Both the position numbers and the translations under genes were made by a program. Below are positions 32,936 to 61,474 of a stretch of DNA of 64,000 nucleotides, piece after piece; the stretch's first letter is position 1; each line of letters opens with the position of its first letter. The stretch comes from a virus (Duplodnaviria > Caudoviricetes): positions 19,693-83,692 of IMG/VR virus record IMGVR_UViG_3300030372_001977; one strand, written 5' to 3'. Under the pieces are notes generated by a model that was not told the origin of the DNA, did no database searches, and saw only the letters and a program-made list of their open reading frames with translations.

Positions 32936-35900
32936 TTATTGTAGTGTTGTAAACCACTTATAAGCATCACCAGGAGAACCGGATCTAGTAAATCCTCTCC
33001 ATATAGGTAGTAGGTCCTCAAAATCTTTTCTTATTTTACGATCTCCTTTGTTAAATCTTCCTGTACGTCTTTGGTAGTATACGTCTTTTTCATCTACCCA
33101 CGGTGCAACACCGCTAAAGTATCCAAGGTCTGATCCTATTTGGCTCATTAATTCAAAACCTTTTTCTATTGGCCTTGCCGTTGCTGTAGGAGATCGCATA
33201 ATTCTAAATGCTTCTTTGTAACCTACAGCTGGATTCCACTGCATAATTTCTGTGTGGTATCTTTTAGCTTGGTACATAGCAAAGTTAACTGCCCAATCGT
33301 CTTCATCTGCATCTAGACTAGCTAAACCATTAACTATTGCTGCTGCAGCAATCATAGCAGATAGTTCAACAAATGTTCTCTTAACATTTTGACGTTCCAT
33401 CTCTGTCATTTTACTGTATGCAAACTCTCTATTTGATATAGACTCTCTTATCATATTCCAAAAAGATATATACATACCCTGTGTAACAGTTCCTAATTCT
33501 TCATCAACTCTTAACGTACTTCCTCCTCCGTGACCATAACGTCTTCTAATTCCTGGTAACAGCCAGCTTCTAAACAACATTAATAGTTTACCGTATGCTC
33601 TTCTTTGCAGCATAGGCTGATGCATCTTACCTTTAGTTTGATTTGTTCTTCTACTTAAACCTTGCACTAAACCTATAAAATCTAAACGGTTAAAGTTATC
33701 TACTCTAGGGTCTACAGACATTACACCATCTTTATCTATAGTTAACATGTCGTATAAATCTGCAGGTTCTCCTTTATCATTCTTTATAACATTTCCATCA
33801 CTGTCTTTTAACTTACCTTTTAAACTTCTCATTAAGCCAAGTAGTCTAGTACCGGATAGTTCATGTTCTGCAGCCTGTTGTAAAAACAATAAATTATTTG
33901 TACTTAAGAATTTTCTAGCTTTACCTCCTACTATTTGATTACCTTCATGATCTGTAAATTCTGTTAAAGCATCAAAATATTCCATTGCTTTACCAAGTTT
34001 AGTTTTAGGGTCAAATCTACCTATATCTGTCATCGCTCCCCCTTCAAACCAGTACTGAGTTTTAGCCCAAGCAAGGTCAGATGCAGACATAAATTGTTTT
34101 GCAACTGCTTCTTGCGCCATAGTAAGGTTATCAAGTATTAATTGGTTAGTACCTTGTAGCAAGTTAAATGATAGAGTGCTTATAGCTGTAAAGCTATTCA
34201 AAGCGCCTACTGCTTTAGTTGCAGAAATTCCTCTAAAGTTTTGCTTTAGTTCATTCTGACCAAACATAACAGTATCAATCCATTCGTCAACGTGTTTAAA
34301 GTTAAATGAATCTCCTTCTTTAAGTAGTGGCATTTTGAAGCCCATAGCTTCTGCAGTTTTTTGTATATACTCTATTCCTCCTGAGTTAGTTACTAATGTT
34401 TTTCTATCTTTTATAATATCTCTAAACAACATAACTTGACCTACAACTTCTGATTTAACTTTATAGTTGTGAGCCATATGTCTAAATTTATATAAACTAC
34501 TAGCAATATCTCTAGAGACATCCGATGCTGGGACTCTATTAGTATAGTATACAGGCACACGTTTATTTAGCTCACCACTATTTTGATCATAAGTACCAAA
34601 TTGGTCATCTGTTTCTACTATAGAAAATCCTTCTTTTAATATATCTTTAGTACCCGCTAGCAAACCTTGCTCTCTAAGTCTATCAACATCTTCTTTTCTT
34701 ATAGACGGCATTAAATAAGAAAACTTATCCCAAGAATTCTTATCCATACGGGTAGCCCCAACCATTTCGTGTCCTTTTTGTAACTCCTCTAAAACAAAAT
34801 TATAATATTCTTTTAGTATAGGATTATTTTGTATTTTAATATACTTTAAATTAGTATACTTATCTTTTCTAGGTCTTACCCATTCTCTCCTAGGAGAACC
34901 TGTAAGAGAGTTATAGTTTGCATCTTTAAATTTTATAAGCTCTTGCAATCTACCGGTTTGCATAGAGTACGCATCGCTGTCTTCTTGACCGTCCTCTTTT
35001 AACTTTTGTCTTAATTTTCTAGCTTGTTCTATTTGTTTATTTAAAACCTTTAGCTCTTGTCTCCAATTATCCACAGGCTCACTATTTTCTTTATCCCACT
35101 TCGTTTCTTCTTGCCTAGCCCTTTTGTAATTGTTTGATAATTTCCATGCTGAATAAGCAGCTTTAAAAGCTTCTTCAGACTGACCCTCTCTTTTTTGCGG
35201 TTGACCATACTCTATATTTATTTTTTTAATAAATGCTTGCTTATCTTTATAATATTTATCTGAGTCAATAGGATTAACTATAGCTAATCTTTTAACGCCC
35301 CTTATAGTTACCTCTTCTAGTAAATCATCATTTAACTTAGATACATCAGATTCAGATCTACCTTCTGCAAATTTATTATATGCGGCACTTAGTTTAGATT
35401 TAAACATACGAGTCATGTCATTCTTTCTTAAATCCGCATCTTGTACAGACTTAACAAATAATTGTATAGCATTATCATTACTATAGATTAGTGGGTCTAG
35501 TAAGTATGAAAAACCACTCTTATCTTTATTTGCTGCTCTTAGTTGTTTAACTAAGGCCCCATAGTTAGGGATCATTTTATTTTTAAGTTGCTCTACTTTT
35601 AAATCTACTTTTTTATTTAAGAATTCTACAGCTGTAATTTCTCCCGCATCAAAACTTTTTTTAAGCTCTTTGTATTCTATTGTTTGTGTGTTTAGTCCTT
35701 GTGTTCTTTTATACTTAATTGCATTATCAATCTGAGCTTGTAGTTGCGGATCAATTGCTTTATTATGGTAACCAGATAAAAACTGTGCCATTATAGGGAT
35801 TACCTCATCATTAAATTTCATACTATATACTCTAGCTGATCTTAAAATAGAATTTAATCTACCTTCTAGTGTATCAAACTTACCCTGATCTAAAACTTTA

Positions 35901-37297
35901 CCCTCGTTTTCTTTAACAAGCATAACAACTTCTAATGCTTGCATTACATCTAGTGCATCTAATTCAGTTTTTAATTTGTATATTTCACTCATATTTTCTA
36001 ATGTAGCTCTTTCGTTTTCAGGAAGCTCCATTATTTTATCATATGTATTAATTGCAGAAGCTAATGAATTTCCCATACTATTTACAGTAGCTAACAAATC
36101 CTCTACTTTTTCAACTTTATCTAAACCTTGCTTAAGATTCTGTAGTTTATAAATACGTTTTTCTCGTTCTTCTGGTGGTAATTGCTCTACTTCATATATT
36201 TCAGATGCTATCCGTACTTTTAAGTTTTGTACAATTTCTGTAAAGTATTCTGAATGATCTCTGCTTTCCTGTGTGTAAGGACTTATAGGATTAAGCATTC
36301 CCTCTGCACGAAGCTTTTTAGCAAACATTTCTTCTGCAATAATTGCAGCTGCGTTAGGTTCAATACCAAATAGTTTTCCAAATGCACGCAATATTCTATT
36401 TATAAATTGTTGTAGTGGACTAGGATTATCTCTTACAATTCTAGCGCCTTCTAACCCAATTGCTGTAGCTAGTACTTCTTTGTCTAATCTTTCCCCGGTT
36501 AATTCAGGATACATTTCCTGCACTTTTCTGTACAAGTTAGTATCTCTAAGCTGAGCTATTGCTGCAGCTACTACAGGGTCGTTAACACCTAACATGTCAA
36601 TATAAATATGACCAAACTCATGATAGGCAGTGTCATCTTTTACTTTGTTAGGATTAAGAACTACCACGGGATTTGTTTCTCCTGGCCTTACTTCTCCTAA
36701 GTTATCTATTTCAGTATCATATATAACATCTACTACAACACCTGCTTTAGAAAATGCCTCTTTTAACTGTACTACCTTAGACTCAAGCCTATCTATATCT
36801 TCTTTAGCCATGTCAGAGAACTTACTCTGATCACTAGTATTCTCTTGCCTTGCTTTCTCTGATAGATAATAATCTTCCGTATTTTCTTTACCTGCAACAA
36901 GACGTACATACTGATCTAATTCCGTCTGGTCGTTATATGTAAAGTCTGCAGTTTCTGGACCCTCTTTTTGTATAGTTTTTAGTAAAGCTTCATTAATATC
37001 TAACACATGCAACTCTGATGCTCTAGAATAAATAGTTTCTGGGGTTGTTTTTATAAAGGTAGTTTTTAATAATCCCGGATATTTACCATTTATTCTTTCT
37101 ATTTCTCTTAAGCTAGGTTGTAGATTAGCTTGGTTTAAATATGTAGAACCACGGAATTTTGTAGCTATACCATTGTTTTTCAATATTTTATACACTGCAT
37201 TAGAAGTTTTCTTTTCTGCAGATGTATTATCCATGTAGCCATATAACTCTGTATATAACTTACTTTCTACTCCATTTATATAATATTTACACGCCAT
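32936..37297 (-). CDS. Giant ejected virion protein with zincin-like metallopeptidase motif
   Basis: 1453 aa; AYHEFGHIY (HExxH); helical; hydrophobic segment near the C-terminus; only Cys at residue 3; adjacent to vRNAP as in crAss-like phages. Confidence 0.7.
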   Translation of the reverse strand: MACKYYINGVESKLYTELYGYMDNTSAEKKTSNAVYKILKNNGIATKFRGSTYLNQANLQPSLREIERINGKYPGLLKTTFIKTTPETIYSRASELHVLDINEALLKTIQKEGPETADFTYNDQTELDQYVRLVAGKENTEDYYLSEKARQENTSDQSKFSDMAKEDIDRLESKVVQLKEAFSKAGVVVDVIYDTEIDNLGEVRPGETNPVVVLNPNKVKDDTAYHEFGHIYIDMLGVNDPVVAAAIAQLRDTNLYRKVQEMYPELTGERLDKEVLATAIGLEGARIVRDNPSPLQQFINRILRAFGKLFGIEPNAAAIIAEEMFAKKLRAEGMLNPISPYTQESRDHSEYFTEIVQNLKVRIASEIYEVEQLPPEEREKRIYKLQNLKQGLDKVEKVEDLLATVNSMGNSLASAINTYDKIMELPENERATLENMSEIYKLKTELDALDVMQALEVVMLVKENEGKVLDQGKFDTLEGRLNSILRSARVYSMKFNDEVIPIMAQFLSGYHNKAIDPQLQAQIDNAIKYKRTQGLNTQTIEYKELKKSFDAGEITAVEFLNKKVDLKVEQLKNKMIPNYGALVKQLRAANKDKSGFSYLLDPLIYSNDNAIQLFVKSVQDADLRKNDMTRMFKSKLSAAYNKFAEGRSESDVSKLNDDLLEEVTIRGVKRLAIVNPIDSDKYYKDKQAFIKKINIEYGQPQKREGQSEEAFKAAYSAWKLSNNYKRARQEETKWDKENSEPVDNWRQELKVLNKQIEQARKLRQKLKEDGQEDSDAYSMQTGRLQELIKFKDANYNSLTGSPRREWVRPRKDKYTNLKYIKIQNNPILKEYYNFVLEELQKGHEMVGATRMDKNSWDKFSYLMPSIRKEDVDRLREQGLLAGTKDILKEGFSIVETDDQFGTYDQNSGELNKRVPVYYTNRVPASDVSRDIASSLYKFRHMAHNYKVKSEVVGQVMLFRDIIKDRKTLVTNSGGIEYIQKTAEAMGFKMPLLKEGDSFNFKHVDEWIDTVMFGQNELKQNFRGISATKAVGALNSFTAISTLSFNLLQGTNQLILDNLTMAQEAVAKQFMSASDLAWAKTQYWFEGGAMTDIGRFDPKTKLGKAMEYFDALTEFTDHEGNQIVGGKARKFLSTNNLLFLQQAAEHELSGTRLLGLMRSLKGKLKDSDGNVIKNDKGEPADLYDMLTIDKDGVMSVDPRVDNFNRLDFIGLVQGLSRRTNQTKGKMHQPMLQRRAYGKLLMLFRSWLLPGIRRRYGHGGGSTLRVDEELGTVTQGMYISFWNMIRESISNREFAYSKMTEMERQNVKRTFVELSAMIAAAAIVNGLASLDADEDDWAVNFAMYQAKRYHTEIMQWNPAVGYKEAFRIMRSPTATARPIEKGFELMSQIGSDLGYFSGVAPWVDEKDVYYQRRTGRFNKGDRKIRKDFEDLLPIWRGFTRSGSPGDAYKWFTTLQ

Positions 37298-37302
37298 ATA
37301 TT

Positions 37303-40300
37303 TTAACTTTTACAAACTTTTTGTGCCTGCTGGTCTTCTTTAACGATGACCGGTGGTTTTGGTTGTTGGAACTTAGCGCCAGGCCTATCAGTTGTAGTAT
37401 TAACTGCAAAATTAACTAAACTTTCTGAATTACTACTCGATATTCCTGACTCATTTAATTTTCTAGATTTACCTAACATTGATAATCTTTGGTATTTACC
37501 GTTTTCTACATTTACAAATACATTAGCCTGACCTGTAGCGTAAGATAAAAAGTAATCTAAATTTAAATTATTATCTCCGTATATTCTAGAGTCTTGTTTA
37601 TTAAAACTTACAAATCCATCTGGACTCATTTTAATTTTTCTAATAGTTTTTAGTAGTGACACTCCTCCCGGGCTTTGCAATCCGTATGTTCTTACAAACT
37701 CATGCTGGAAGTTATCAAAGTAATCTGTCTTAGTTAACGCTGTAGCTTCTTGTCTAAAAAACTCTACAGGACTTTCTGCTGATGTATTTAACATGTTTGT
37801 AGTTAATGCTTCTGTAGGTATTAGATCTATGTAGCTTCCAAATGTAGGATTAAAACCACTAGTTAGAATTTGATTAACTACAAGAGATTTACCAAAGTCT
37901 CGTATTTCTTCATTAGGACTACTAATCAATTGGTTTAAACTATCACTAAACTGATTCTTATCTGTTGTAGATATTCCTATTGGTAAATCTAAACGTAATA
38001 AAAATAAACCGGTTTCTTTATTAGATGGATCCTCTTCTAGAGCTTGTACAAATAAATTATTATTTAGTTCTGGATACTTAACTTTTATTTCTTCTAGTTT
38101 AGTAACTAGATTATTATTAGGATTTATATACATATTTCTAAAAGTATTTTCAGAAATAATACCTCCATCTATAAAAGGACTGTTAGGCTGAGTCATTATC
38201 TTTAAAAATAATGCTCTGTCTATTAGTTTATGCTGCTTGTCTGTAAATCTAGAGACGCCTAGAGATTCTTTTAGGTTATCTTTAAATGTATTGAATGCTG
38301 GAGAATTGTTTATAAACCCTGCTCGACCAGCTTCTTCTAGTATAGTATCAAATATCCCTCTATATGCAACTCCTATAGGATTTAACGGCTTGTCTGTTCC
38401 TTTATTGTGTAGTATAAACTCTTCTGCTCCTGATATTAAACTGTCTACATTATTTAGATATAAATTTTCTCTATCTATCCAAGCTATAACCGATGATAGT
38501 TCGTTTACATTATCTATATTATCAGGTGTTATAATTTTATTTACAGTTTGTAATGCTCTACCTGCTTTGTAAAATGTTTTAAAGTTTAGTAGATATTGTG
38601 CTTGTAGCTCAGGATCTGCTTCTGATAGATTATCTTGCAATTGTATTGAAGACATAGGAAAGTTTGGTGCAAAATCAGGATTGTTTATTTTATATTTTTT
38701 AGCTATTTTATCTATAGACTGATTAAACTCTCCTAGAGATCTTGCATTTAATTTTGCATCATCTGTAATCTCTCTAATTATAGGTTGGTTTACAAAGTTT
38801 AATGCTGTATCTATAGGAATACCTAAACTATAGAATAGTCCTAAAACTGGATTAGTATATATATTATCATTTATATCTAACTGTATAGGCTCCTTAGCAT
38901 AATCAGTAGCTCCAGATAAGTGCTCTGATATATTAGCATCAGTGTAGTTTCCTTTTATGTCTTTTGTAACTCCTAAATCTCCATAGTTTACATTGTCAAT
39001 TGACAGCATAAATTCTGGTTTTAATCTTAAAAGCTTTGCAGTCTCTGATACATTTCTACCCGCCAAATGATTTGCCCATAATCCAATTAGACTAGCTCCT
39101 TCTTTAGTTCTCTCTTCCATAGCTATTTCTGCTAAAGGACTGTTGTAATCTATTGTAGTATCTACACCAATTTTATCAGATAAAAATGCTTTAGAATCTC
39201 TTAGACTTTGTATATCTAGTGGCTTTATAACTTCTTCTAAATGTTTTGCATCTGTTAGTATAGACTTAAATACATCAAATACTACATTGTTTCTTTCTTT
39301 TCTACTCATTTTAGAAGGGTCTACAGAATAATCCGGTTTAACAACGTTTCCATCTGTATCTACTTCAGGGAGTATTATATTTAGCTTATCAATATCAAAG
39401 TCACTACCCATCTGTACAGTTATAGCTCCAGGTACCATGATAGCTTTTTCATGTGACTCTGGTAAAAAGTCTACTACCTCCATAAACAATGATGAATTCT
39501 TACCCTGTTGAGGTATACGATACCCAATAACTTGTAGTTTTTCTTTTGGTACATCTTCTATTTTAACGTTAGGCTCTAATCCTAATGCGCTAGCTTTTAT
39601 TCTTATTTGTGCAGCATTTGTTCCGTCATAAAACTCTAACTCTCCACTTACTGTATGCCCACCAAGCTCTGCAATCTGCACTAACTCTTTACCTTTAAAC
39701 TTCTGATTAAACAGTTCATTATTATATGTGCTCATAAATATACCTTCAAACTTAGCTTGATAGTTAGGAAAAGCTAGTGGTATTTTAAATGTCCAGTCAA
39801 ATGCTCCATTAGGGACTATGTTTAATGCTTCTAGATAATTATCAGGCAAGTCTCTATCTTTAATTTGCCTAGCCATTTTATCTCTAACATTTATTAGATA
39901 GTTTAGTTTAGCATCTCTATACTCTTTAGTACCTTCTCTACCCCTTAACTTTTTTATTTGTGTAATACCTAGTTCTTTTTCTAAGTTTACTCTATCTTCG
40001 TTTATATTAGCAGCTATAGATTCTCCGTATATCTTATATAGTAACGAGCCTGATACTGTAACATCTCCTAATTTATATTGCTGTGTTGGAAATATGTTTG
40101 CAGTTATATTTTTTCTAATCTGTCTGTTAAATGCTAACTCATCTTTTTTAGTTCTAGGCATCATTTGTGGAAACCTCAACATCTTAGAGTCCATAACTGT
40201 TGGATTTGACACATCTAAATTTCCTGTTCCTTCAAAATCTTGTACATTTCTTTTAGCTCCTTTAGTTGCACTTACTGTATTAACTACATCGATACCATTG

Positions 40301-43300
40301 TTCATAGCATCTAACATAGTAGATAAGTAAGGGTAGAACATAGCTAACTCTGGAGTTACAACTGTATATGAATTTTTATCCATATATAGTGTGTTTACAC
40401 TATTTTGTAAAGATAATTCTTCGTGGAACGGTTTTAACGGATATATAGGCATAGCTTGCCCGCTGTTATTAATATATCTATTAACTTCAGGATTTCTAGC
40501 ATTGTTGTATGCTTCTTCATCTTTTACGGTCCACTGACCTAGTCCTTGCATTATACCACGATACATCGGTAAACTAATAAATGATTGTGCATCTGACTTG
40601 TTTACACTGCGGTAGTCTTGAGCTATCTCTTCTGCTGTAAACATATCTATACCTTGACTTTGTAATGTTGTAGATAAGCTATCTGCTATTTCATTAGCTC
40701 TTTCTTTATCTGTAAAATCAAAATCTCTAATAGTAATAGTATTATATGTAGGAGGCATACCATATGTTGGATCTGTCTCAGACATACCTTTAATAAATAG
40801 TTTATTACCTGGTGTTTTTAGAAGAGCCATACGTTTATAGAAGTCTTCTGTATTTTTAGCAAAGCTAAATCCTCCTCTTAACACTTTAGTAATTTCTATT
40901 TTACCTATAAAATTTTCAAATATAAAATCCTTAAGAAATTTATTACGTTTAGTATCCGTATCTAACTCAGAGCTAACTTCTGTAAACAGATCTATTCCGT
41001 AGCTATTAATTTTTTGTACTATATCCTCTTCGTAAAGTTTTATTTTGTTTTCAACGTCATTTATTTTATCATTTAGTAATGTCTCAAACTCTTCTCTTTG
41101 TACAAATTGTTTATTTAAAATGTAGTCTTTTGTATAGTCAGACATTTCAGTACCATCTTTTAATATTGTATTTTGTAGTCCTGATATTTGTGTCATAGTA
41201 AATGCAGAACCATCTGCCGCATAAGGATCTGCTATGTTCTTATAGTGATAACCTTCTATTAATATGCTAGGGTCACTCATTTTAAATGCTTCTATTATCA
41301 GTTCATTAGCTTGATCCATTCTAGCTAAGTCTTGTAATATTAAATTTTCTATTAACTGTTTTCTATTAGTGCTTACCCCATATTTTAAATAACTACTAAT
41401 TCTAGGTATAGTTAAAAAATCTAAAGATTGTCTTCCCGCTTGTATAGGTAATGCTACCTTAGTAAAGTTTTTACTTCCTCTGTTTTGATATGCTAGCAAT
41501 CTTTCTATTAAAGATATTTTACTAGTTTGGTTATCATAATCCGAGCTAGCTACTAACTCATCAGAAGATTTGTATGAGTCTAGCACTTCATGTATAAAGT
41601 TTCTTCTAGCCTCTTCGTTGTTATGTAGCGCAGATATTAAAGGAGATGAATGCTTAATACTTCCGTAAGGTCTGTTTAGAGGATCTGTTAAAAGCTGAGT
41701 TAAAAGTTTAATTTTTCCATCTGCTTCTTTAGGGTTATTAATTTCACTAGTAAGTTCATGTAATCTTGTAGGAAGATTAATAGGATAGTACTGTTTGTTT
41801 GTTCCGCTAATAAAGGATCCAAATGGTTTAGACTCAAATAGAGGAGCAATGTCTACAAGCTTATCCACTAAACTGCTGTGTTCTCTGTAGATGTCTTTTG
41901 GATTTTCTTGGTTAATACTATTTACAAACTTGTTAAGATTATTTCCTGGCTCAAATACTAGCCTAGAGAATAAGTTATTTTCAGCTACACCTTCTTCATT
42001 CCCTAGATTATAATACCTTAATAAATTTTCTTGTGTTGTTTCTAGAGATGGTCCGTACTGCATACCTAATGTCCACAGGTATTCTCCTAAAGCTAGAATA
42101 TCTTCTGTATCCCATTGTCCTCTTTTTGTATTGTTAACAGCACTAATTTGATCCCAAAGCTTTACTAGTAACTCTTTCTTATCTTCTTTTACTGATATTT
42201 TATTATCAGCATCTATCATATATATAGCTCTATCATTAGGTATTAACCTTTGTCTAGAGTTTTCTCTAAATTTTTCTTTAGCCTTTTTACTTATTTGACT
42301 TTGATTAGAGTTAATAATTTTATTTGTAGTGCTTATCTGTCCTGTTATAGGATCTGTGTATAACTCACTTTTAAATAGAATAAAATTATTGTATGCTGTT
42401 TTAAAGTTAGTGAATAAAGCTGCTTCTTCTTGAGGTGTAAGTGTATCTAGCTTAGCTCTTAAAGCTACTGCTTCAGGTTTGTACAATGCATACCAGTCTA
42501 GTTTACTTCTCATGTCAGCAAAGGTAGGCTCACCTACAGCTGCTTCAGCCATAATACTGTATGCTTTATCCATAGACATAATTACAGGATACCCAAAACT
42601 GTTAAGTGTCCCTAACTTAATATTGCCTAGAATAGATCTTGCTTCAGAAGACAACTTATCTCTTGGGTTTTCTTCTAAGCTAGACATGCTATATATCTTT
42701 TCAGGAGTATCATCAAACTCCTCCATAGTACCTGCTCTATCTGAGAGCTTCATACCATATGCCGATAGACTGTCTTTTAGTATTTCTCTAACACCTACTT
42801 TTTCTATGTTACCTGTAATAGGATTTCTTTCTGTATTCCAATTATGGTAAGCAAATATAAAAATTTGACTTGCATTGTTAGGGGCCCCTGGTACAGTGTT
42901 CATACTAACACCTTCAGGGAGCGCTTCTACAAAAGCATCTTTACCTTCTGTAGTTAATATTTTATAAAGTCTTTTAGCTTCTTGTATATCGTCTAGTCCT
43001 TGGAATGCTTCTAATAAAAGTTTATCTGCTAAGTCTCCTTTCTCTTCTGTATCTTGAGCTAGACCAAAGTATTTATTAACGTCTCCTTTAAATGTCTCCG
43101 GATTGTTTTCTTTGACGGTATTTACAAAGTTAACTATTGTATTAATAAGCTCATCTTGTAACTCTCTCCCTATATTTAATACACTGCTTTTTTCTTTTAC
43201 TTCTACAGGTATTTCCCAAGTATCTCCTTTGTTATTTTTAAAAGAAACATACCCAGTTTCATATGCTAATTTAGGCTCTCCATTATTATCAGTAAATAAA

Positions 43301-43482
43301 TCTACATTATAATCTTTTTCCCAGTCTTTACCATACCACTTCTTAAACTCTGCAGAATGTATGTCATCATAAATTTTTGTAGCTTCATTACTATCTCGTG
43401 TAGCAATTTTTAAATCTTCGTATAACTCAGATGTCTTACCGTTTGGTAGTATAGCTTTTCCTTTTTGTACTCTACAACTCAT
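37303..43482 (-). CDS. Virion-packaged single-subunit DNA-dependent RNA polymerase (crAss/phi14:2 gp66-like)
   Basis: 2059 aa; catalytic GSDFDIDKL (DFDID as in phi14:2 gp66), upstream IGYRIP (RxP), and MDKNS lysine motif. Confidence 0.88.
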   Translation of the reverse strand: MSCRVQKGKAILPNGKTSELYEDLKIATRDSNEATKIYDDIHSAEFKKWYGKDWEKDYNVDLFTDNNGEPKLAYETGYVSFKNNKGDTWEIPVEVKEKSSVLNIGRELQDELINTIVNFVNTVKENNPETFKGDVNKYFGLAQDTEEKGDLADKLLLEAFQGLDDIQEAKRLYKILTTEGKDAFVEALPEGVSMNTVPGAPNNASQIFIFAYHNWNTERNPITGNIEKVGVREILKDSLSAYGMKLSDRAGTMEEFDDTPEKIYSMSSLEENPRDKLSSEARSILGNIKLGTLNSFGYPVIMSMDKAYSIMAEAAVGEPTFADMRSKLDWYALYKPEAVALRAKLDTLTPQEEAALFTNFKTAYNNFILFKSELYTDPITGQISTTNKIINSNQSQISKKAKEKFRENSRQRLIPNDRAIYMIDADNKISVKEDKKELLVKLWDQISAVNNTKRGQWDTEDILALGEYLWTLGMQYGPSLETTQENLLRYYNLGNEEGVAENNLFSRLVFEPGNNLNKFVNSINQENPKDIYREHSSLVDKLVDIAPLFESKPFGSFISGTNKQYYPINLPTRLHELTSEINNPKEADGKIKLLTQLLTDPLNRPYGSIKHSSPLISALHNNEEARRNFIHEVLDSYKSSDELVASSDYDNQTSKISLIERLLAYQNRGSKNFTKVALPIQAGRQSLDFLTIPRISSYLKYGVSTNRKQLIENLILQDLARMDQANELIIEAFKMSDPSILIEGYHYKNIADPYAADGSAFTMTQISGLQNTILKDGTEMSDYTKDYILNKQFVQREEFETLLNDKINDVENKIKLYEEDIVQKINSYGIDLFTEVSSELDTDTKRNKFLKDFIFENFIGKIEITKVLRGGFSFAKNTEDFYKRMALLKTPGNKLFIKGMSETDPTYGMPPTYNTITIRDFDFTDKERANEIADSLSTTLQSQGIDMFTAEEIAQDYRSVNKSDAQSFISLPMYRGIMQGLGQWTVKDEEAYNNARNPEVNRYINNSGQAMPIYPLKPFHEELSLQNSVNTLYMDKNSYTVVTPELAMFYPYLSTMLDAMNNGIDVVNTVSATKGAKRNVQDFEGTGNLDVSNPTVMDSKMLRFPQMMPRTKKDELAFNRQIRKNITANIFPTQQYKLGDVTVSGSLLYKIYGESIAANINEDRVNLEKELGITQIKKLRGREGTKEYRDAKLNYLINVRDKMARQIKDRDLPDNYLEALNIVPNGAFDWTFKIPLAFPNYQAKFEGIFMSTYNNELFNQKFKGKELVQIAELGGHTVSGELEFYDGTNAAQIRIKASALGLEPNVKIEDVPKEKLQVIGYRIPQQGKNSSLFMEVVDFLPESHEKAIMVPGAITVQMGSDFDIDKLNIILPEVDTDGNVVKPDYSVDPSKMSRKERNNVVFDVFKSILTDAKHLEEVIKPLDIQSLRDSKAFLSDKIGVDTTIDYNSPLAEIAMEERTKEGASLIGLWANHLAGRNVSETAKLLRLKPEFMLSIDNVNYGDLGVTKDIKGNYTDANISEHLSGATDYAKEPIQLDINDNIYTNPVLGLFYSLGIPIDTALNFVNQPIIREITDDAKLNARSLGEFNQSIDKIAKKYKINNPDFAPNFPMSSIQLQDNLSEADPELQAQYLLNFKTFYKAGRALQTVNKIITPDNIDNVNELSSVIAWIDRENLYLNNVDSLISGAEEFILHNKGTDKPLNPIGVAYRGIFDTILEEAGRAGFINNSPAFNTFKDNLKESLGVSRFTDKQHKLIDRALFLKIMTQPNSPFIDGGIISENTFRNMYINPNNNLVTKLEEIKVKYPELNNNLFVQALEEDPSNKETGLFLLRLDLPIGISTTDKNQFSDSLNQLISSPNEEIRDFGKSLVVNQILTSGFNPTFGSYIDLIPTEALTTNMLNTSAESPVEFFRQEATALTKTDYFDNFQHEFVRTYGLQSPGGVSLLKTIRKIKMSPDGFVSFNKQDSRIYGDNNLNLDYFLSYATGQANVFVNVENGKYQRLSMLGKSRKLNESGISSSNSESLVNFAVNTTTDRPGAKFQQPKPPVIVKEDQQAQKVCKS

Positions 43483-43483
43483 A

Positions 43484-46400
43484 TTAACATTTTTTACCTA
43501 AGTCGTCAAAGAATATGTTTAGTTGATCATTATCGCTCTTTTTTATTGTCTTAGTTTTTGATTTTGTTTCTACTTTAGTTTCTGGTCTTATTGCGGCTAA
43601 TTGCATATCATATTTATCATTGATTTCATTTATAAGAGTTTGGTTTGTTACACCTTTTAAAGCTTTTCTTCTTTTAACTTCAATGTTAACTGCTTGGTTC
43701 CGTGTCTCTGATGAACTATATATATTTTTCATATTCTGTTCAGAGGCTATAAAAGCTTCTCTTTTAATCTTAGTATTCTTAATAATCTCTGGTGCAGTCT
43801 CACCTAGTAGATCTCCTTTCTCAAATATTACTCTAGGACTGTTAAACATACTTTCTCCTTTTCTAGTTATATCTGTAGTTAGTATAGCATTATATCCTAC
43901 ACCATCTACTCTTGCTTCATCTCCTAGTTCTTTAGAGCTAAATAAATATTCTTGATAACTACTATATTGTATATCTGTTACTGGGCTAGTATATGGAGTT
44001 TTTTGATTACCCAAATCTCTATCTACATTATATTTTTTAGTTTCTAAAAACTCTGTTAAATCTTTTGCTAGGTCTAGTTTTGATTTTGTTGTATCAGATT
44101 TACCTCCTACAAATTTTTCATTCTTTTCAGTTACAATATGGAATGTGCTTTCTTGGTCAGTTCCTAAACCTTTTGCTAATTCGTTTTCATTTATTCTAAT
44201 TAACTTTCCTAGCTTAGGACTATTATAAACTATATATTTAGTTCCATCCTCAAACTCTGCAAACTCTAAGTAGGATGGATTTGTATTAGCACCACTTCTT
44301 ATAGAACTACTAGCTACAATTTGTGCTGCTACATCATACTGTTTATTTGCTAAAGCCTCTAATACTTTATCTCTAGCTTGTGCATTTAAGTTAGCTGTGC
44401 TTGCTATAGACATCCTAGCTATTCCTTCAGGATTATTTTCTTTCTTAATTACTATACCTATTTGATTTAATGCTCCAGGTGTAACATCGTTTTGAACCTC
44501 TGTTTTAATTGAGTTTAGCTCATTAAGTTTATTTTTATCAGGATGAACTTCTCCTAATGTCCACTGGTAGGTTAATGTGTCTCCTTCTTTAACAGCGCTA
44601 GTAAATCCTAATAAGATGTCATCTTCTTTACCAAATGTTTCTGTAGGATTGTGGAAGTGTATCTCTAAAGTATCAGCGTTTACAGTATTGTTAAAGTTGT
44701 TTGCTTTAATACTGCTTATCTTAGTAGTTACTCTTTGACCTTTTTGTAGTTTATCTACAATAGCTTTTCTTTCTGGATTATTAGATACTTCTAGTTTACC
44801 TACGTAAGCATTACCTATTTTATAGTAGATAGGTATCTCAGTCCAAGACTCTTCTGCTTTATTTAATCTATCAGATTTATACCAATCGTTTTCTATTATC
44901 TCTAACTCTATCTCTTCTTCTAATATATCTTCTTTTAATAGTAGGTCTGGCTGTAATAAAATAGGTTTATCTATAGCAGTCTCTTTTACAACTCCTTGAT
45001 CTACTCTGTTTTTAATATAATTTTTTAATGAAGCACTTTCTGAAGCTACAATAAATTGAAGTATACTACCAGGAGTCCCTAATTTAATATGAGCTTGATA
45101 TACTTCATCAATAATTCTTTGTGCAGACATAATAGGTTTACCCTGTTTACGCAATATTTCATTCATCCTAATACGTTTTTCAATAAACTCGAGCATAGCA
45201 TCAAATTGTTTTTGAGCTTCTTCATAAGTTAAAGTATTAGGATCAACTCCTTTTTGAGATTTTGCACCAGCTTTAGCTTCACTAACTGCAGTATCAGTTA
45301 ATACTTTAATATTACCAAAAGTTCCAAATACTCCTTCATAAGAATTATCAATTATTTCATCTGTAATAGTATCAGGATCTGGTTCTACTGTATTACCATT
45401 TTCATCAACCGGTACTTTATACACAGGGTCTTCAGGTGTACCTACATTTATAACTTCTTCTACGTTTGTAGCAGATACAATATTTAACTGACCTGGAGAT
45501 GTATTTTTATTACCAGTTATATTTTTATCACTTGATGCTTTTGGCTTTCTAGGTACAGATCTTTCTTGAGGTTTATTATTTTTTATATTATCATTATTCT
45601 CATCTGATATAATAGTACTTTCATCAAGAACTAATTCATCTACTATTTCATCATCTTGTATCTCAGATGTATCATTTTTCTTAATCTTGTTTTCTAAAAG
45701 TTTAATAGCATTTTCTAAACCTTTTCTTTCTGTAGGAGATAAGTTTGTTTCTTCTTTAGCTAAAGATTGTAATACCTTAAGTTGATCTTTTAACGATTTA
45801 TTTTTATTTAATTTTAGATAGTTTCTTTCTGCTTCTTGCTCTTGTCTTTTTAATTCTTGTCTTTTTTGTTTAGCTGTCATTTTAGCTGCACTTGATGCAT
45901 CTTCAGGAACAGCATCATTAACTTGGTCAGACGTCTCTGCATTAGCTATATCTTCTTTTGCTTTTTTATCTTTAGCCACTAACTTTGCAGATTCTTGATT
46001 TGCTTTTACTGTTTCTTCAAAAAGATCTTGGAAGTATTTACTAGACGATAGTTTATTGTAAGCTTCTATAGATACAGAGTTATCCATAAACAAGGATAAG
46101 TAATCCTCTGCTAATTTAGTAAACGGCATAGTTGCAGCTAAAGCATTCTTTTTAACTAGCTCCTGTTGTATATCTTGGAATGTTTTAGCAATAATATTAA
46201 CTTCTTCTCGAGCATTGTATTCACCCGTTTCATCTACTAACAAATCTTCACCAGGATTAAGTAGTAGATCTATATCTGTTTTTATCTTTACACCATTAAT
46301 CTTTTCTGCTTCTTGTATTAGAGTTTTCATTTGCTTTTGAATGTTCTCTAACCTTTCGTTTCTATTTCCTATTCCAGATGCTCTTAGTACTAGCTCTGCA

Positions 46401-48211
46401 CGTAAGTTCTCTCTTTGGTTATAAACAGCATCTTCTGCTTTTCTTTCTTCCTCAGACATCATCATTCTAGGTAATCCCATAGTTTTAGGGACTGGTGGGA
46501 ACATATCGTTTATATTCTTATATGTCTTTTCAAATTTATCAAGTTTAGTTTCTAAATTTTTAATTACATCTGATTTAGACTTACCTCCAGTTTGCTCTTC
46601 TAGCGTTATTTCTGTATCATACCCAAACGCTTTTGCAAAATCTTGATCACTTAAAGACTTAGAGTCTTTTAGTTTTTCTCTAAATACATCATAGGTTCCG
46701 TTCTCTAGTGCTGCAAATGCATTATATTGCATTAGTTTAAACTGGGCATCTTTAAAAGCTTTAATATCTCCAGACCTTCTAGCATTTTCCATGTCTGCAA
46801 CCACCTTAGCTTGAGCGTTGTAGTTTAGCATTTTATTATTAACGTTATCCATAAACCCTCCATTAATAACATCAGCAGCATATTGCGCTGCAGCTTTTCT
46901 TTGTTCAAACTCTCCGGCTGCAGTACTTCTTACACCTGCCATTCCACCCCCTACTATAGCCCCAACTAACATAGATTCTAAACCTTCTTGACTTCCTAAA
47001 GTTTCTGTAATACCTTTATATAAAGATTCAGTCATGCTAGCCATACCACCATCATAGTATTTATCTGTATGGTAATCAGTAGCTATTATATTAGATGCAA
47101 ACTGCCATCCTTCTTGACCTGCCTCTGCTAGTGCGCCTTGTCCTGTAGGTTTTAATCTAGACAGAGCATTTCTATATATACCCTGATCTGCTACTCTACT
47201 AACTGTTTTATTTAGCGCAGCATCAAATGCTACATCTTTATTTACTCTAGACGCCGGTTTAAATCCAGCAACCGCTCTTCCAAACATAAACAAGTTAGTA
47301 CCAGCAAGAACTGGTAACTGAGTTATAAAGTTTCTATTACCTGCAGCATAAGAAGCGTCTTCTATACCTTTTAAATCTACCTCACTTAACTGTGATGCAT
47401 CTGTAAATCCTCGTTCTTCTAACTCTTTATTTAATAGATCTTCATAAACACCTTTTTGAGTTTCTCTTGCTTCTACTGATGCTTCTGCTAACGACATATA
47501 AAGACCCATTTCAGTCATGTTAGCTAAATTAATAAATCCTTGTCTAGTAAATCTGCTTCCTTTTTCAACAGCGCCTGCTATCTTTGTACCATTTGCTAGT
47601 GCTTTACTAGTATTATATAAGGCCATTGATTTAGCACTTTTTCCAATCAATCCTACACCTCCTGTTAAAGCCATAGTTGCTATAGATCCTATACTGTAAC
47701 CTAAACCATTCATTACTGTATCAGCCCAAAAGTTAGCTGTAAGAAGTTTTCTTCCTGTAGACATTTCTTGTTCCTCTTGAGTTCTGTAGTTAGGAAATCT
47801 TTCCCGCATAGCCTCGTTCATCTTATCTACATTCTGCCCAATAAAATTATCATAGTATGCTCCACCAGAAACCATTTCTCCTATTCCAAATGCAATTCCT
47901 AATGTATTTTCTGCTACAGCTCCTAATGTAGTTACACCAGCCTTACCCAAACCACGCATCCATTTTTCTCCTGTGCCTTGATTTTTAGCTCTTTCTTCGT
48001 CCCAATTAAAATATCTAGTTGTAGGTACGTCATATTTTTTGTATTTACTAACATCATCTTGATACATATTAGTAAAGTTCATAGAATCGTAAGGATACTT
48101 TTCTAATATACCTGAACCAGCGTAAGAAGCGTTACCTTTTTCAATAGTTATACCCTTAGTAACAGGCTCCTCTTGTTGTAAATTAGTCTGTGGATTTATA
48201 ATAATAGCCAT
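43484..48211 (-). CDS. Giant ejected virion protein with N-terminal membrane-spanning segments
   Basis: 1575 aa; Gly/Ala-rich hydrophobic segments (GLGKAGVTTLGAVAENTLGIAFGIG; GLGYSIGSIATMALTGGVGLIG); only Cys is the last residue. Confidence 0.7.
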   Translation of the reverse strand: MAIIINPQTNLQQEEPVTKGITIEKGNASYAGSGILEKYPYDSMNFTNMYQDDVSKYKKYDVPTTRYFNWDEERAKNQGTGEKWMRGLGKAGVTTLGAVAENTLGIAFGIGEMVSGGAYYDNFIGQNVDKMNEAMRERFPNYRTQEEQEMSTGRKLLTANFWADTVMNGLGYSIGSIATMALTGGVGLIGKSAKSMALYNTSKALANGTKIAGAVEKGSRFTRQGFINLANMTEMGLYMSLAEASVEARETQKGVYEDLLNKELEERGFTDASQLSEVDLKGIEDASYAAGNRNFITQLPVLAGTNLFMFGRAVAGFKPASRVNKDVAFDAALNKTVSRVADQGIYRNALSRLKPTGQGALAEAGQEGWQFASNIIATDYHTDKYYDGGMASMTESLYKGITETLGSQEGLESMLVGAIVGGGMAGVRSTAAGEFEQRKAAAQYAADVINGGFMDNVNNKMLNYNAQAKVVADMENARRSGDIKAFKDAQFKLMQYNAFAALENGTYDVFREKLKDSKSLSDQDFAKAFGYDTEITLEEQTGGKSKSDVIKNLETKLDKFEKTYKNINDMFPPVPKTMGLPRMMMSEEERKAEDAVYNQRENLRAELVLRASGIGNRNERLENIQKQMKTLIQEAEKINGVKIKTDIDLLLNPGEDLLVDETGEYNAREEVNIIAKTFQDIQQELVKKNALAATMPFTKLAEDYLSLFMDNSVSIEAYNKLSSSKYFQDLFEETVKANQESAKLVAKDKKAKEDIANAETSDQVNDAVPEDASSAAKMTAKQKRQELKRQEQEAERNYLKLNKNKSLKDQLKVLQSLAKEETNLSPTERKGLENAIKLLENKIKKNDTSEIQDDEIVDELVLDESTIISDENNDNIKNNKPQERSVPRKPKASSDKNITGNKNTSPGQLNIVSATNVEEVINVGTPEDPVYKVPVDENGNTVEPDPDTITDEIIDNSYEGVFGTFGNIKVLTDTAVSEAKAGAKSQKGVDPNTLTYEEAQKQFDAMLEFIEKRIRMNEILRKQGKPIMSAQRIIDEVYQAHIKLGTPGSILQFIVASESASLKNYIKNRVDQGVVKETAIDKPILLQPDLLLKEDILEEEIELEIIENDWYKSDRLNKAEESWTEIPIYYKIGNAYVGKLEVSNNPERKAIVDKLQKGQRVTTKISSIKANNFNNTVNADTLEIHFHNPTETFGKEDDILLGFTSAVKEGDTLTYQWTLGEVHPDKNKLNELNSIKTEVQNDVTPGALNQIGIVIKKENNPEGIARMSIASTANLNAQARDKVLEALANKQYDVAAQIVASSSIRSGANTNPSYLEFAEFEDGTKYIVYNSPKLGKLIRINENELAKGLGTDQESTFHIVTEKNEKFVGGKSDTTKSKLDLAKDLTEFLETKKYNVDRDLGNQKTPYTSPVTDIQYSSYQEYLFSSKELGDEARVDGVGYNAILTTDITRKGESMFNSPRVIFEKGDLLGETAPEIIKNTKIKREAFIASEQNMKNIYSSSETRNQAVNIEVKRRKALKGVTNQTLINEINDKYDMQLAAIRPETKVETKSKTKTIKKSDNDQLNIFFDDLGKKC

Positions 48212-50587: not shown

Positions 50588-50591
50588 ATTA

Positions 50592-53486: not shown

Positions 53487-53497
53487 AGTTATATTTT

Positions 53498-60590: not shown

Positions 60591-61474
60591 TAGCTTCTAT
60601 ATAAATCTTCTCTTGTATTTAAATGTTCAAATGCTGTATCATGTCTATTTATGTCTGGGATGAGTCTAACCCATTGATTCATAAACGATTCGTATTTATC
60701 TATATCTGGATAGTTAGCTGCATTTCTTGCTTGTGTGCAGTAATATTTCCATTGTTGTTCTGCAAATGTATAATTAATACCATTGTTTTTAATATCTGGT
60801 TTAGATAGTAATATCTTTTTATATATGTACCAAAACATTGCTTCAGAAAAACTAATGTCATCTGGCACCAGTGGGTAACAATCTTCATCTAATGGAAAAG
60901 CCATATAACTTAAACATATTTTACCACTAGCAAAAGATGTTTTTATGTAATCACAATCTATTATATATGTGTCTTCGTAGTTTGTGTTTTCATTAACACA
61001 TCCTGTACAATGCATGCTTTTATGAAATGTACTTGCTCCATACTGCAAAGGCTGTAATTGATTTCTACTTCTAAAGTATACATTTTCAACTACAACTATT
61101 CTGTTATTTATTTCATTTAAAATAGAAGCAGTATCAGCATATGCTATACCGTCATCTTGTGCGCTTTTAATTTGATCTTGTAGTTCTTTTACTCTAGTGT
61201 TTAGTTTATCTAACTCTGTAGAATCAACTGCAGACACGCTGTTATTAATAGCAACTTGATTAATATAATACAAATCAGAAGGCATTAATGTTTTATGATC
61301 TGACACATCTAAAACACATTGTTTTTGACACAGTTGTGCAGAAGATCCTATGTGTTCTAAAGCTTCTCCTATCCACTCTATAGCATCATCAATCCAGTCA
61401 TCGTTATCTGGTTTTAAATCTCTAAAGATTTTTCTAATTATTGTCTTACTAGACTTTGTTTTATATATACTCAT
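60590..61474 (-). CDS. Tail ring/adaptor protein
   Basis: 294 aa; IEWIGEAL...LPxDLYYI and KICLSYMAFPLDEDCYPLVPD...EAMFWYI patterns of crAss ring proteins. Confidence 0.7.
   Translation of the reverse strand: MSIYKTKSSKTIIRKIFRDLKPDNDDWIDDAIEWIGEALEHIGSSAQLCQKQCVLDVSDHKTLMPSDLYYINQVAINNSVSAVDSTELDKLNTRVKELQDQIKSAQDDGIAYADTASILNEINNRIVVVENVYFRSRNQLQPLQYGASTFHKSMHCTGCVNENTNYEDTYIIDCDYIKTSFASGKICLSYMAFPLDEDCYPLVPDDISFSEAMFWYIYKKILLSKPDIKNNGINYTFAEQQWKYYCTQARNAANYPDIDKYESFMNQWVRLIPDINRHDTAFEHLNTREDLYRS

What the first reader, a model, noticed from the sequence alone, without database searches (positions are those of the whole stretch)
32936..48211. Three giant ejected proteins carry only four cysteines, all terminal, in a head-to-tail pattern: a possible disulfide-linked ejection chain
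Seen: reading all 5,087 aa, the 1575 aa protein has one Cys, its last residue (...DDLGKKC*). The 2059 aa vRNAP has two, residue 3 (MSC) and residue 2057 (QKVCKS*). The 1453 aa protein has one, residue 3 (MAC). The outer ends (N-terminus of the first, C-terminus of the last) have none, and I found no Cys in the 790, 964, 445 and 311 aa cargo proteins. Established: N4 vRNAP is Cys-free, and crAss-like cargo is thought to be ejected unfolded through the narrow tail. Inference: C-term(A)-N-term(B) and C-term(B)-N-term(C) pairs join the three products, in gene order, into one covalent or Zn-bridged chain. The links would form on oxidation after lysis; the membrane-inserting protein A would lead, pulling RNAP and the zincin protein through in order, and the chain would be released by reduction in the host cytoplasm. 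I know of no description of such a system.
Basis: partly seen in the sequence, partly recalled or inferred. Interest (0 to 1): 0.92.

Follow-up and report, generated by a model that had tools for sequence, protein, structure and literature searches.

The report
Terminal cysteines chain crassvirus cargo proteins
Three giant proteins that this marine crAss-like phage probably packs and injects, with its RNA polymerase in the middle, have cysteine only at the ends that face the next protein. Relatives lose those cysteines wherever the genes are fused, which suggests disulfide bonds tie the proteins into one thread, though nobody has shown the bond in a crassvirus.

Summary
A (1575 aa) has one Cys, its last residue. 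B, the virion RNA polymerase (2059 aa), has Cys3 and Cys2057. C, a zincin protein (1453 aa), has Cys3. The 445, 964 and 790 aa cargo proteins have none.

The pattern is conserved in about 360 metagenomic homologues, in cultured phi14:2 and crAss001, and in 80 IMG/VR loci.

The decisive test is natural gene fusion:
- Where A and B are separate genes, the B protein starts with a Cys in 46 of 46 cases. Where they are fused, 0 of 26 do.
- Where B and C are separate, B ends with a Cys in 68 of 69 cases. Where they are fused, 0 of 16 do.
- Fully fused A-B-C polyproteins (4730-5711 aa) contain no Cys at all.
- The outer ends never carry Cys.
- The changes recur independently on the tree (8 of 8 and 5 of 5 contrasts).

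So each Cys pair stands in for a peptide bond, which supports head-to-tail pairing. A disulfide is the likely link. The same signature in cyanophage A4 (gp27 Cys1715, gp26 Cys5) is a disulfide seen by cryo-EM, so the kind is not wholly undescribed.

The timing of oxidation, A leading the chain, and release by reduction remain untested. This scan found the same rule earlier on at least eight other crAss-like genomes.

The parts
43484..48211 (-). Protein A, 1575 aa. First giant cargo protein, homologous to crAss001 gp47; phi14:2 gp67 is its positional counterpart with the same Cys pattern. Cys-free except for its last residue.
   Evidence: jackhmmer maps the A domain onto crAss001 gp47 and the Dulem virus 2474 aa protein; blastp matches cr3_1 gp23.
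43487..43489 (-). Codon of Cys1575 of A (donor 1). It is the last codon before the stop, and B's ATG follows 1 nt after the stop.
   Evidence: All 116 full-length A homologues listed carry one Cys within the last 1-6 residues. Across the order, 18 of 18 unique A-ending C-termini do.
37303..43482 (-). Protein B, 2059 aa. Virion RNA polymerase, homologous to phi14:2 gp66 and crAss001 gp50.
   Evidence: (PDB 6VR4, E 5e-24).
43474..43476 (-). Codon of Cys3 of B (acceptor 1).
   Evidence: C3 is an invariant column in the 32-sequence alignment A1, alongside the catalytic D1361 F1362 D1363 D1365. 43 of 43 unique B-starting N-termini carry it.
43318..43482 (-). N-terminal module of B, about residues 1-55, with the pattern M-x-C ... 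PNGK-x-S-x-L. It is homologous to the N-terminus of C.
   Evidence: hhalign of the B and C N-termini in local mode gives probability 88% and E 2.9e-6. Alignment A4.
39388..39402 (-). DFDxD catalytic motif of the RNA polymerase, residues 1361-1365.
   Evidence: Invariant columns in A1.
37312..37314 (-). Codon of Cys2057 of B (donor 2), two residues before the C-terminus.
   Evidence: 63 of 64 unique B-ending C-termini carry a Cys. The one exception, L034, is an ORF split by an apparent frameshift.
32936..37297 (-). Protein C, 1453 aa. Zincin-domain protein, homologous to phi14:2 gp65 and crAss001 gp49.
37289..37291 (-). Codon of Cys3 of C (acceptor 2). C's ATG lies 5 nt after B's stop.
   Evidence: C3 is invariant in A2. 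57 of 58 unique C-starting N-termini carry it.
36968..37297 (-). N-terminal alpha/beta domain of C, residues 1-110, with Cys3 on a short coil. A disordered linker follows at residues 115-164. This domain and linker are absent from B-C fusions in the marine relatives.
   Evidence: AlphaFold2 model: pLDDT about 90 for residues 11-110 and below 50 for 115-164. In fused relatives the C part begins at C residue 139-172 directly after the end of B.
36608..36622 (-). HEFGH zincin motif of C, residues 226-230.
   Evidence: H226, E227 and H230 are invariant or nearly so. The model of residues 164-335 resembles zincin peptidases, with PPEP-3 at Z 7.1 and the lethal-factor family at about Z 6.
48215..54835 (-). 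Three Cys-free cargo-like ORFs of 790, 964 and 445 aa, lying between the muzzle gene and A.
   Evidence: The proteins at the same position in crAss001, phi14:2, cr3_1, cr110_1, cr53_1 and Dulem virus are also Cys-free or nearly so.
54837..60590 (-). Muzzle protein, 1917 aa with 18 Cys. It marks the start of the cargo block and shows that Cys is not avoided in tail proteins.
   Evidence: Pfam crAss_MUZ, E 7e-40.

Best explanation
A, B (the virion RNA polymerase) and C are the split form of a giant crassvirus cargo polyprotein. In this phage they are re-joined after translation by two inter-protein links, most likely disulfides: A-Cys1575 to B-Cys3, and B-Cys2057 to C-Cys3. The product would be one unbranched chain of about 5,087 residues in the order A-B-C.

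Each Cys sits within a few residues of a chain end, and no other Cys exists in these proteins. The joined product is therefore topologically a single thread with no loops or branches. That matters for material which must pass partly unfolded through the tail and the host envelope.

What is shown: the Cys pattern, its conservation, its strict dependence on gene breaks, and the fixed order A-B-C.

What is inferred: that the link is a disulfide (by analogy with cyanophage A4 and from chemistry), when it forms, and that its purpose is ordered co-ejection.
For: 1. Conservation. Almost every full-length homologue of B has exactly two Cys, at position 3-5 and within the last 1-6 residues. Homologues of A have one Cys at the C-terminus, and homologues of C have one at position 3-6. 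The apparent exceptions P0016 and P0255 are a frameshift and a late start call.
2. Breadth. The pattern holds in phi14:2 gp67/gp66/gp65, crAss001 gp47/gp50/gp49 and Dulem virus 41.
3. Fusion test. This used 88 B-containing ORFs, with domains mapped independently of Cys by jackhmmer.
   - A|B split: 46 of 46 have an N-terminal Cys. A-B fused: 0 of 26.
   - B|C split: 68 of 69 have a C-terminal Cys. B-C fused: 0 of 16.
   - Nine complete or near-complete A-B-C polyproteins have no Cys at all.
4. Independence. There are at least 8 and 6 architecture changes on the B-core tree. Independent contrasts are 8 of 8 (p = 0.008) and 5 of 5 concordant.
5. Outer ends. 1 of 41 A N-termini carries a Cys (an artefact), and 0 of 72 C C-termini do.
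6. Only the pairing A_C-B_N plus B_C-C_N makes each kind of fusion remove one complete pair.
7. It is not a DNA-level signal. crAss001 gp47 lies on the opposite strand, intergenic gaps range from -11 to +43 nt, and both TGT (155) and TGC (16) are used.
8. Precedent. A-4L gp27 (1717 aa, sole Cys at 1715) and gp26 (1114 aa, sole Cys at 5) form a disulfide in the cryo-EM pre-ejectosome (PMC12002296; PDB 9K3A).
9. crAss001 virions carry many structural disulfides in the tail (PMC10172136).
10. B and C share a homologous N-terminal module that carries the Cys. In B-C fusions among the marine relatives, C's N-terminal domain and linker are gone.
Against: - No disulfide between these proteins has been observed in any crassvirus.
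- The host cytoplasm is reducing and gut crassviruses live in anoxic habitats, so when and how oxidation happens is unknown.
- No thiol oxidase turned up among the 26 window ORFs scanned against Pfam.
- Some 'A-B fused' calls rest on a long N-terminal extension plus the absence of a separate A gene, not on detected A homology.
- The tree is a FastTree on a fast alignment, so the counts of independent events are approximate.
Confidence: 0.62

Rival explanations
1. The disulfides (or tight Cys-dependent contacts) exist, but they only lock a static cargo assembly inside the capsid or fix 1:1:1 packaging and keep the polymerase module together. They play no part in pulling the proteins through the tail in order. 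This is how the A4 authors describe their bond.
For: The A4 paper describes the gp27-gp26 bond as stabilising a docked helix in a cleft. C has a folded N-terminal domain that could act as a docking site.
Against: A static staple could sit anywhere on a surface. Here every Cys lies 0-9 residues from a chain end (one case at 23), and it is interchangeable with a peptide bond in the fixed order A-B-C. That pattern fits chain continuity better than lateral stapling.
Confidence: 0.2
2. The facing thiolates bridge a metal ion (Zn, Cu or Fe) together with other ligands, rather than forming a disulfide.
For: A metal site could form in the reducing cytoplasm. Acidic residues are common just upstream of the donor Cys.
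Against: Each junction contributes only two Cys. Architectures with a single break keep just two Cys in total, which is too few for a Cys4 site. No conserved His or further Cys lies nearby. The one solved example with this signature is a disulfide.
Confidence: 0.08
3. Each terminal Cys acts on its own and does not pair with the neighbouring protein. For example, each could anchor to another virion protein or carry a modification.
For: Tail and muzzle proteins are Cys-rich and could offer partners.
Against: This does not explain why the N-terminus of A and the C-terminus of C never carry Cys (1 of 41, an artefact, and 0 of 72). It also does not explain why Cys vanish in facing pairs on fusion, or why fully fused proteins have none.
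Confidence: 0.05
4. The Cys codons are conserved for a nucleotide-level reason at gene junctions, such as translational coupling, read-through or RNA structure.
For: The codons lie within about 10 nt of the gene boundaries in this window.
Against: crAss001 gp47 is on the opposite strand from gp50 and gp49 and still keeps the pattern. Spacers and reading frames vary. The distance of the Cys from the chain end varies from 0 to 9 residues. Both Cys codons occur.
Confidence: 0.01

Closest known systems
Cyanopodophage A4 (Anabaena phage A-4L) ejection proteins gp27 and gp26; cryo-EM pre-ejectosome, PNAS 2025, PMC12002296; gp26 is chain A of PDB 9K3A
   Same: The upstream giant ejection protein has a single Cys three residues from its C-terminus (1715 of 1717). 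The next gene's product has a single Cys at residue 5. The two were seen disulfide-bonded in the virion.
   Different: There is no detectable sequence or profile similarity to A, B or C. A4 has one link between two proteins, not a three-protein chain. No RNA polymerase is involved. The authors treat the bond as a local stabiliser. No rule linking Cys to gene fusion was reported.
RNA-polymerase cargo block of cultured crassviruses: phi14:2 gp67/gp66/gp65 (gp66 is PDB 6VR4) and crAss001 gp47/gp50/gp49
   Same: B and C are homologous to both phages' proteins and A to crAss001 gp47. The order A-B-C and the Cys pattern are the same, and the proteins were detected in virions by MS.
   Different: The papers I could read (bioRxiv 10.1101/2020.03.07.982082; PMC10172136; PMC13434306) do not mention these cysteines or any covalent link. 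The polyprotein forms were assumed to be cleaved.
Cys-suppressed ejection proteins of Schitoviridae: N4 gp50-52 and DEV gp71-73
   Same: A giant ejected virion RNA polymerase and its companion proteins are almost free of Cys. The accepted rationale is passage through the periplasm (PMC11445570).
   Different: In that family Cys is absent everywhere, including the termini, and the polymerase is a single 3,400-3,500 aa chain. Here the interior is Cys-free but the junction-facing termini carry conserved Cys.

Membership tests
Crassvirales RNA-polymerase cargo block (gp47/gp50/gp49-like) | The middle protein is a two-barrel RNA polymerase with a DFDxD motif, related to phi14:2 gp66 | tested here: met
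   PDB 6VR4 hit, E 5e-24. D1361, F1362, D1363 and D1365 are invariant. tblastn matches crass RNAPs.
Crassvirales RNA-polymerase cargo block (gp47/gp50/gp49-like) | The downstream protein has a zincin HExxH domain | tested here: met
   HEFGH at residues 226-230 is conserved. The model of residues 164-335 aligns to zincin peptidases at Z 6-7.
Crassvirales RNA-polymerase cargo block (gp47/gp50/gp49-like) | Synteny with crassvirus capsid, portal, ring, muzzle and small cargo genes | tested here: met
   Pfam Crass_capsid, P22_portal, CrAss_Ring_1, CrAss_Ring_2 and crAss_MUZ. The order is muzzle, 445, 964, 790, A, B, C.
Crassvirales RNA-polymerase cargo block (gp47/gp50/gp49-like) | The proteins are present in virions and are ejected | not testable with these tools
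   Known only for homologues: MS/MS annotation for phi14:2 and virion MS for crAss001.
Head-to-tail disulfide-linked ejection proteins (A4 gp27-gp26 type) | A sole Cys within a few residues of the C-terminus of protein n, and a sole Cys at about residue 3-6 of protein n+1 | tested here: met
   for the window; for A-4L.
Head-to-tail disulfide-linked ejection proteins (A4 gp27-gp26 type) | A disulfide between the two Cys observed in the virion | not testable with these tools
Head-to-tail disulfide-linked ejection proteins (A4 gp27-gp26 type) | Sequence homology to A4 gp27 or gp26 | tested here: not met
   blastp and HMM searches give no hit better than E 0.07. hhalign probability is below 1%.
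Cys-free ejection cassette of Schitoviridae | Complete absence of Cys, termini included | tested here: not met
   Four conserved terminal Cys are present. Interior Cys is only 0.028%.
Split inteins / protein trans-splicing | Intein (Hint) fragments flank the junction, with the nucleophilic Cys following a C-intein segment | tested here: not met
   The Cys lie at residue 3 and at 0-2 residues from the end, which leaves no room for intein fragments. Pfam finds no Hint domain in A, B or C.
Inter-chain Zn(Cys)4 hook | Four Cys ligands are available wherever the system occurs | tested here: not met
   Architectures with one break retain only two Cys.

The most novel reading that the evidence does not exclude
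Across Crassvirales, the polymerase cargo is a 'disulfide-spliced polyprotein'. Separately translated modules are joined end to end into one unbranched thread of 5,000 residues or more by redox-sensitive bonds. The thread is ejected in a fixed order and then cut by the reducing cytoplasm to free an active RNA polymerase. A dedicated N-terminal acceptor module, shared by B and C, would give the joints their specificity.
Probability: 0.4. Interest if true: 0.85.

Novelty: new variant of a known kind. Interest (0 to 1): 0.76.

Why it matters
How crassviruses, the most abundant phages of the human gut, store and eject about 0.7 MDa of polymerase cargo is unresolved. A June 2026 paper still lists it as open (PMC13434306).

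A covalent head-to-tail chain would explain several things at once:
- how three giant proteins leave in order and in equal numbers;
- why they tolerate being fused or split so freely in evolution;
- why Cys is purged everywhere except at the joints.

It also gives a simple sequence rule for finding linked ejection proteins in other phages; cyanophage A4 already shows the same signature. The experiments it points to are cheap, and suitable virion preparations and MS data already exist.

Tried and rejected
No co-folding evidence exists either way.
- The search for related loci with the single B protein found nothing in viral contigs. The alignment-based scan worked.
- PHROGs and Pfam gave almost nothing for A, B and C.
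- My marine-clade HMMs missed the Intestiviridae proteins. blastp with crAss001 and Dulem queries, and then jackhmmer, mapped them.
- treekit with MAFFT --auto timed out. I used FFT-NS-2 plus FastTree instead.
- Three apparent B-C fusions with an internal C-x4-C (L042, L046, L084) came from my own choice of a recoded genetic code. The only stop codon read through lies exactly between '...KC' and 'MSC' or 'MAC'. They are split genes that obey the rule.
- The apparent co-loss of Cys in P0016 and P0255 was a frameshift plus a late start call.
- Foldseek against the PDB gave no match at E 0.001 or better for the C 1-360 model. VIA-align matched only the zincin part. The N-terminal domain had no clear match, with Z about 4.5, and it was not searched on its own.
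- I looked for a phage thiol oxidase or thioredoxin among 20 further window ORFs (26 with the six cargo ORFs) and found none. The scan was not exhaustive.
- Hydropathy gave no support for A as a membrane-inserting leader.
- The final Nature version of the phi14:2 paper (PMC12127119) is not held, so I read only the preprint.

Full report
WHAT IS IN THE WINDOW

The window is a crassvirus genome segment. Pfam identifies:
- the crassvirus major capsid protein (1000-2472);
- the portal (4608-6914);
- ring proteins 1 and 2 (60590-61474 and 62718-63410);
- the muzzle protein (54837-60590).

Downstream of the muzzle gene on the minus strand lie three ORFs of 445, 964 and 790 aa. Then come A (43484-48211, 1575 aa), B (37303-43482, 2059 aa) and C (32936-37297, 1453 aa).

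B is a distant relative, about 25% identical, of the crass virion RNA polymerases, namely phi14:2 gp66 and crAss001 gp50. It matches PDB 6VR4 and has an invariant DFDxD motif. C carries a conserved HEFGH zincin motif at residues 226-230.

THE OBSERVATION

A has one Cys, its last residue. B has Cys3 and Cys2057. C has Cys3. The 445, 964, 790 and 311 aa ORFs have none.

The remaining ORFs of the window contain 1.25% Cys. Four or fewer Cys in 5087 residues then has probability 1e-22, and the placement of the four at the junction-facing ends has probability about 3e-12. The muzzle protein (18 Cys) and the ring proteins (8 and 6 Cys) show that the phage does not avoid Cys in general.

CONSERVATION

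Searches of the 5.8-billion-protein collection returned 120 listed homologues for each protein.
- Nearly every full-length B homologue, down to 27% identity, has exactly two Cys, at position 3-5 and within the last 1-6 residues.
- Every full-length A homologue has one Cys within the last 1-6 residues.
- Nearly every C homologue has one Cys at position 3-6.

In a 32-sequence alignment of B, C3 is one of only 66 invariant columns, alongside the catalytic aspartates. C3 of protein C is likewise invariant.

One apparent joint loss (P0016 and P0255 on one contig) turned out to be a frameshift in a 4.6x-coverage contig plus a late start call. The DNA encodes '...DNTDCL*' followed by 'MACKFKY'.

CULTURED AND REFERENCE PHAGES

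- phi14:2: gp67 (1797 aa) has one Cys, its last residue. gp66 (2180 aa) has Cys3 and Cys2179. gp65 (1421 aa) has Cys3. All three are virion proteins by MS/MS annotation.
- crAss001: gp47 (2341 aa) has Cys2339. gp50 (2412 aa) has Cys5, Cys1334 and Cys2404. gp49 (1349 aa) has Cys5. gp47 is encoded on the opposite strand from gp50 and gp49, yet the pattern is kept.
- Dulem virus 41 shows the same pattern.

THE FUSION TEST

[quoted passage not shown] I fetched 80 IMG/VR loci with a B alignment. I listed the large ORFs and mapped A, B and C homology onto them with jackhmmer, independently of Cys content. blastp confirmed the key reference cases:
- cr3_1 gp24, cr11_1 gp66 and cr110_1 gp40 (Intestiviridae) are B followed by C.
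- cr3_1 gp23 is an A homologue.
- cr53_1 gp57 is A followed by B.

After I corrected three false fusions of my own making, the counts are as follows:

| Junction | Genes separate | Genes fused |
|---|---|---|
| A/B: Cys in the first 8 residues of the B-containing ORF | 46 of 46 | 0 of 26 |
| B/C: Cys in the last 10 residues of the B-containing ORF | 68 of 69 | 0 of 16 |

The false fusions were L042, L046 and L084. In each, the only stop I had read through lies exactly between '...KC' and 'MSC' or 'MAC'. The single exception among split B/C loci, L034, is an ORF broken by an apparent frameshift, and the Cys sits at the end of the next piece.

Complete A-B-C polyproteins of 4730-5711 aa (L021, L024, L025, L028, L029, L030, L037, L064) contain no Cys at all.

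On the partner side, counted over unique proteins:
- C-termini ending in A: 18 of 18 carry a Cys.
- N-termini starting with C: 57 of 58 carry a Cys. The exception is a 5'-truncated ORF call.
- N-termini starting with A: 1 of 41 carries a Cys, and that one is a start-call artefact.
- C-termini ending in C: 0 of 72 carry a Cys.
- Interior Cys makes up 0.028% of 387,911 residues.

On a tree of the B core, the A/B state changes at least 8 times and the B/C state at least 6 times. Independent contrasts are 8 of 8 concordant (sign test p = 0.008) and 5 of 5 concordant (p = 0.06). Every fusion has the order A-B-C.

WHAT THE FUSION TEST DISCRIMINATES

The number of terminal Cys equals twice the number of breaks, and only the ends that face a break carry Cys.
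- Of the three ways to pair four Cys, only A_C-B_N plus B_C-C_N makes both kinds of single fusion remove one complete pair.
- A Zn(Cys)4 knot is not possible where only two Cys remain.
- Independent terminal tags do not explain the bare outer ends.
- Cys-dependent self-cleavage of polyproteins is excluded, because the polyproteins have no Cys.
- A DNA-level signal is excluded by the crAss001 arrangement, by variable spacers (-11 to +43 nt) and by the use of both codons (TGT 155, TGC 16).

ANATOMY OF THE JOINTS

The donor tails are poorly conserved, hydrophilic and often acidic, with Lys beside the Cys. The Cys lies 0-9 residues from the end, except in L077 where it lies 23 from the end. Lys or Arg is enriched at positions -2 (0.34) and +1 (0.29) against a background of 0.13.

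The acceptor ends of B and C share a homologous module of about 50 residues, M-x-C ... PNG-K-x-S-x-L-[FY]-x-x-L. hhalign in local mode gives probability 88% and E 2.9e-6.

An AlphaFold2 model of C residues 1-360 has three parts:
- a confident alpha/beta domain at residues 11-110 (pLDDT about 90), with Cys3 on a short N-terminal coil;
- a disordered linker at residues 115-164;
- the zincin domain from about residue 168.

In B-C fusions among the marine relatives, the C part begins at C residue 139-172, directly after the end of B. So the N-terminal domain and linker appear only where the genes are split.

IS THE LINK A DISULFIDE?

The cryo-EM structure of cyanopodophage A4 shows a disulfide between Cys1715 of gp27 and Cys5 of gp26 in the pre-ejectosome (PMC12002296).

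In the A-4L genome, gp27 is 1717 aa with that single Cys. The next gene, gp26, is 1114 aa with that single Cys. gp26 is chain A of PDB 9K3A. I found no sequence or profile similarity to A, B or C, so the resemblance is in design and not in ancestry.

crAss001 virions also contain many inter-subunit disulfides in the tail (PMC10172136). Together with the two-ligand arithmetic, this makes a disulfide the most likely link. It has not been shown for any crassvirus.

WHAT REMAINS INFERENCE

The following are all untested:
- that oxidation happens after lysis;
- which end leads during ejection;
- that the cytoplasm reduces the links.

A has no hydrophobic 19-mer at Kyte-Doolittle 1.6 or above.

The argument for a threading role is topological. 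Cys at the extreme ends, and nowhere else, yields one linear chain equivalent to the natural polyprotein. A static staple would not need that.

LITERATURE

Suppression of Cys in ejected proteins is known for Schitoviridae, namely N4 gp50 and DEV gp71-73 (PMC11445570). I found no mention of the terminal Cys or of a covalent link in:
- the crAss001 atlas;
- the phi14:2 preprint;
- a 2026 N4 paper that still calls the crassvirus ejection proteins unresolved;
- full-text searches.

The same rule was noted earlier by this scan on at least eight other crAss-like genomes. I re-derived it here from this window's own relatives.

VERDICT

The head-to-tail pairing is strongly supported by covariation with gene architecture. 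A disulfide is likely but unproven, and the mechanistic details are open. I class this as a new variant of a known kind: a disulfide between ejection proteins, as in A4, extended to an order-wide three-module chain that carries the virion RNA polymerase.

Noticed in passing
L042, L046, L084 (B/C junctions): B's stop codon is followed in frame, after 0-1 intervening codons, by C's ATG ('...KC-stop-x-MSC'). Choosing a recoded genetic code by ORF length therefore creates false B-C fusions. In these loci, the junction stop was the only one read through inside the B-C coding part.
   Followed up: yes
window 6992-7327 (-): A 111 aa ORF with a SET domain (Pfam PF00856, E 2.5e-7) lies next to the portal gene. 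This would be a possible protein lysine methyltransferase in a marine crassvirus.
   Followed up: no
window 32936-37297 (-), C residues 1308-1326: This is the only strongly hydrophobic 19-mer in the six cargo-block proteins. It lies near the C-terminus of C, in a region where the homologue consensus is also hydrophobic. If any part of the chain inserts into a membrane, this is the candidate, not A.
   Followed up: partly
window 32936-37297 (-), C residues 397-499: The profile of C weakly matches the syntaxin-1A Habc three-helix bundle (E 2e-5). The match may only reflect coiled-coil composition.
   Followed up: no
homologues of A and B (P0134, P0144, P0184, P0198, P0199, P0225, P0056, P0063 and others): Many homologues carry extra precomputed Pfam domains (PF08719, PF18760, PF12694, PF08010, PF25176). 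A homologues cover only the N-terminal 60% of the query. The chain therefore seems to carry variable add-on modules, perhaps injected effectors.
   Followed up: no
L077:3491-8134: The A homologue's single Cys lies 23 residues from the C-terminus instead of 0-3. It is the one outlier among the donor tails.
   Followed up: partly
L035:4220-14116, residues 947-991: An A-B fused protein keeps an internal copy of the 'APNG..S.LY..L' acceptor module, but no Cys precedes it.
   Followed up: partly
L002, L005, L007, L008 (gut crassviruses): Gut lineages tolerate a few interior Cys in B and C (for example crAss001 gp50 Cys1334, and cr3_1 gp24 Cys1972/1973 and 2096/2099). Marine lineages have essentially none.
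   Followed up: no
The 358 aa ORF next to it (2520-3596) is also Cys-free.
   Followed up: no
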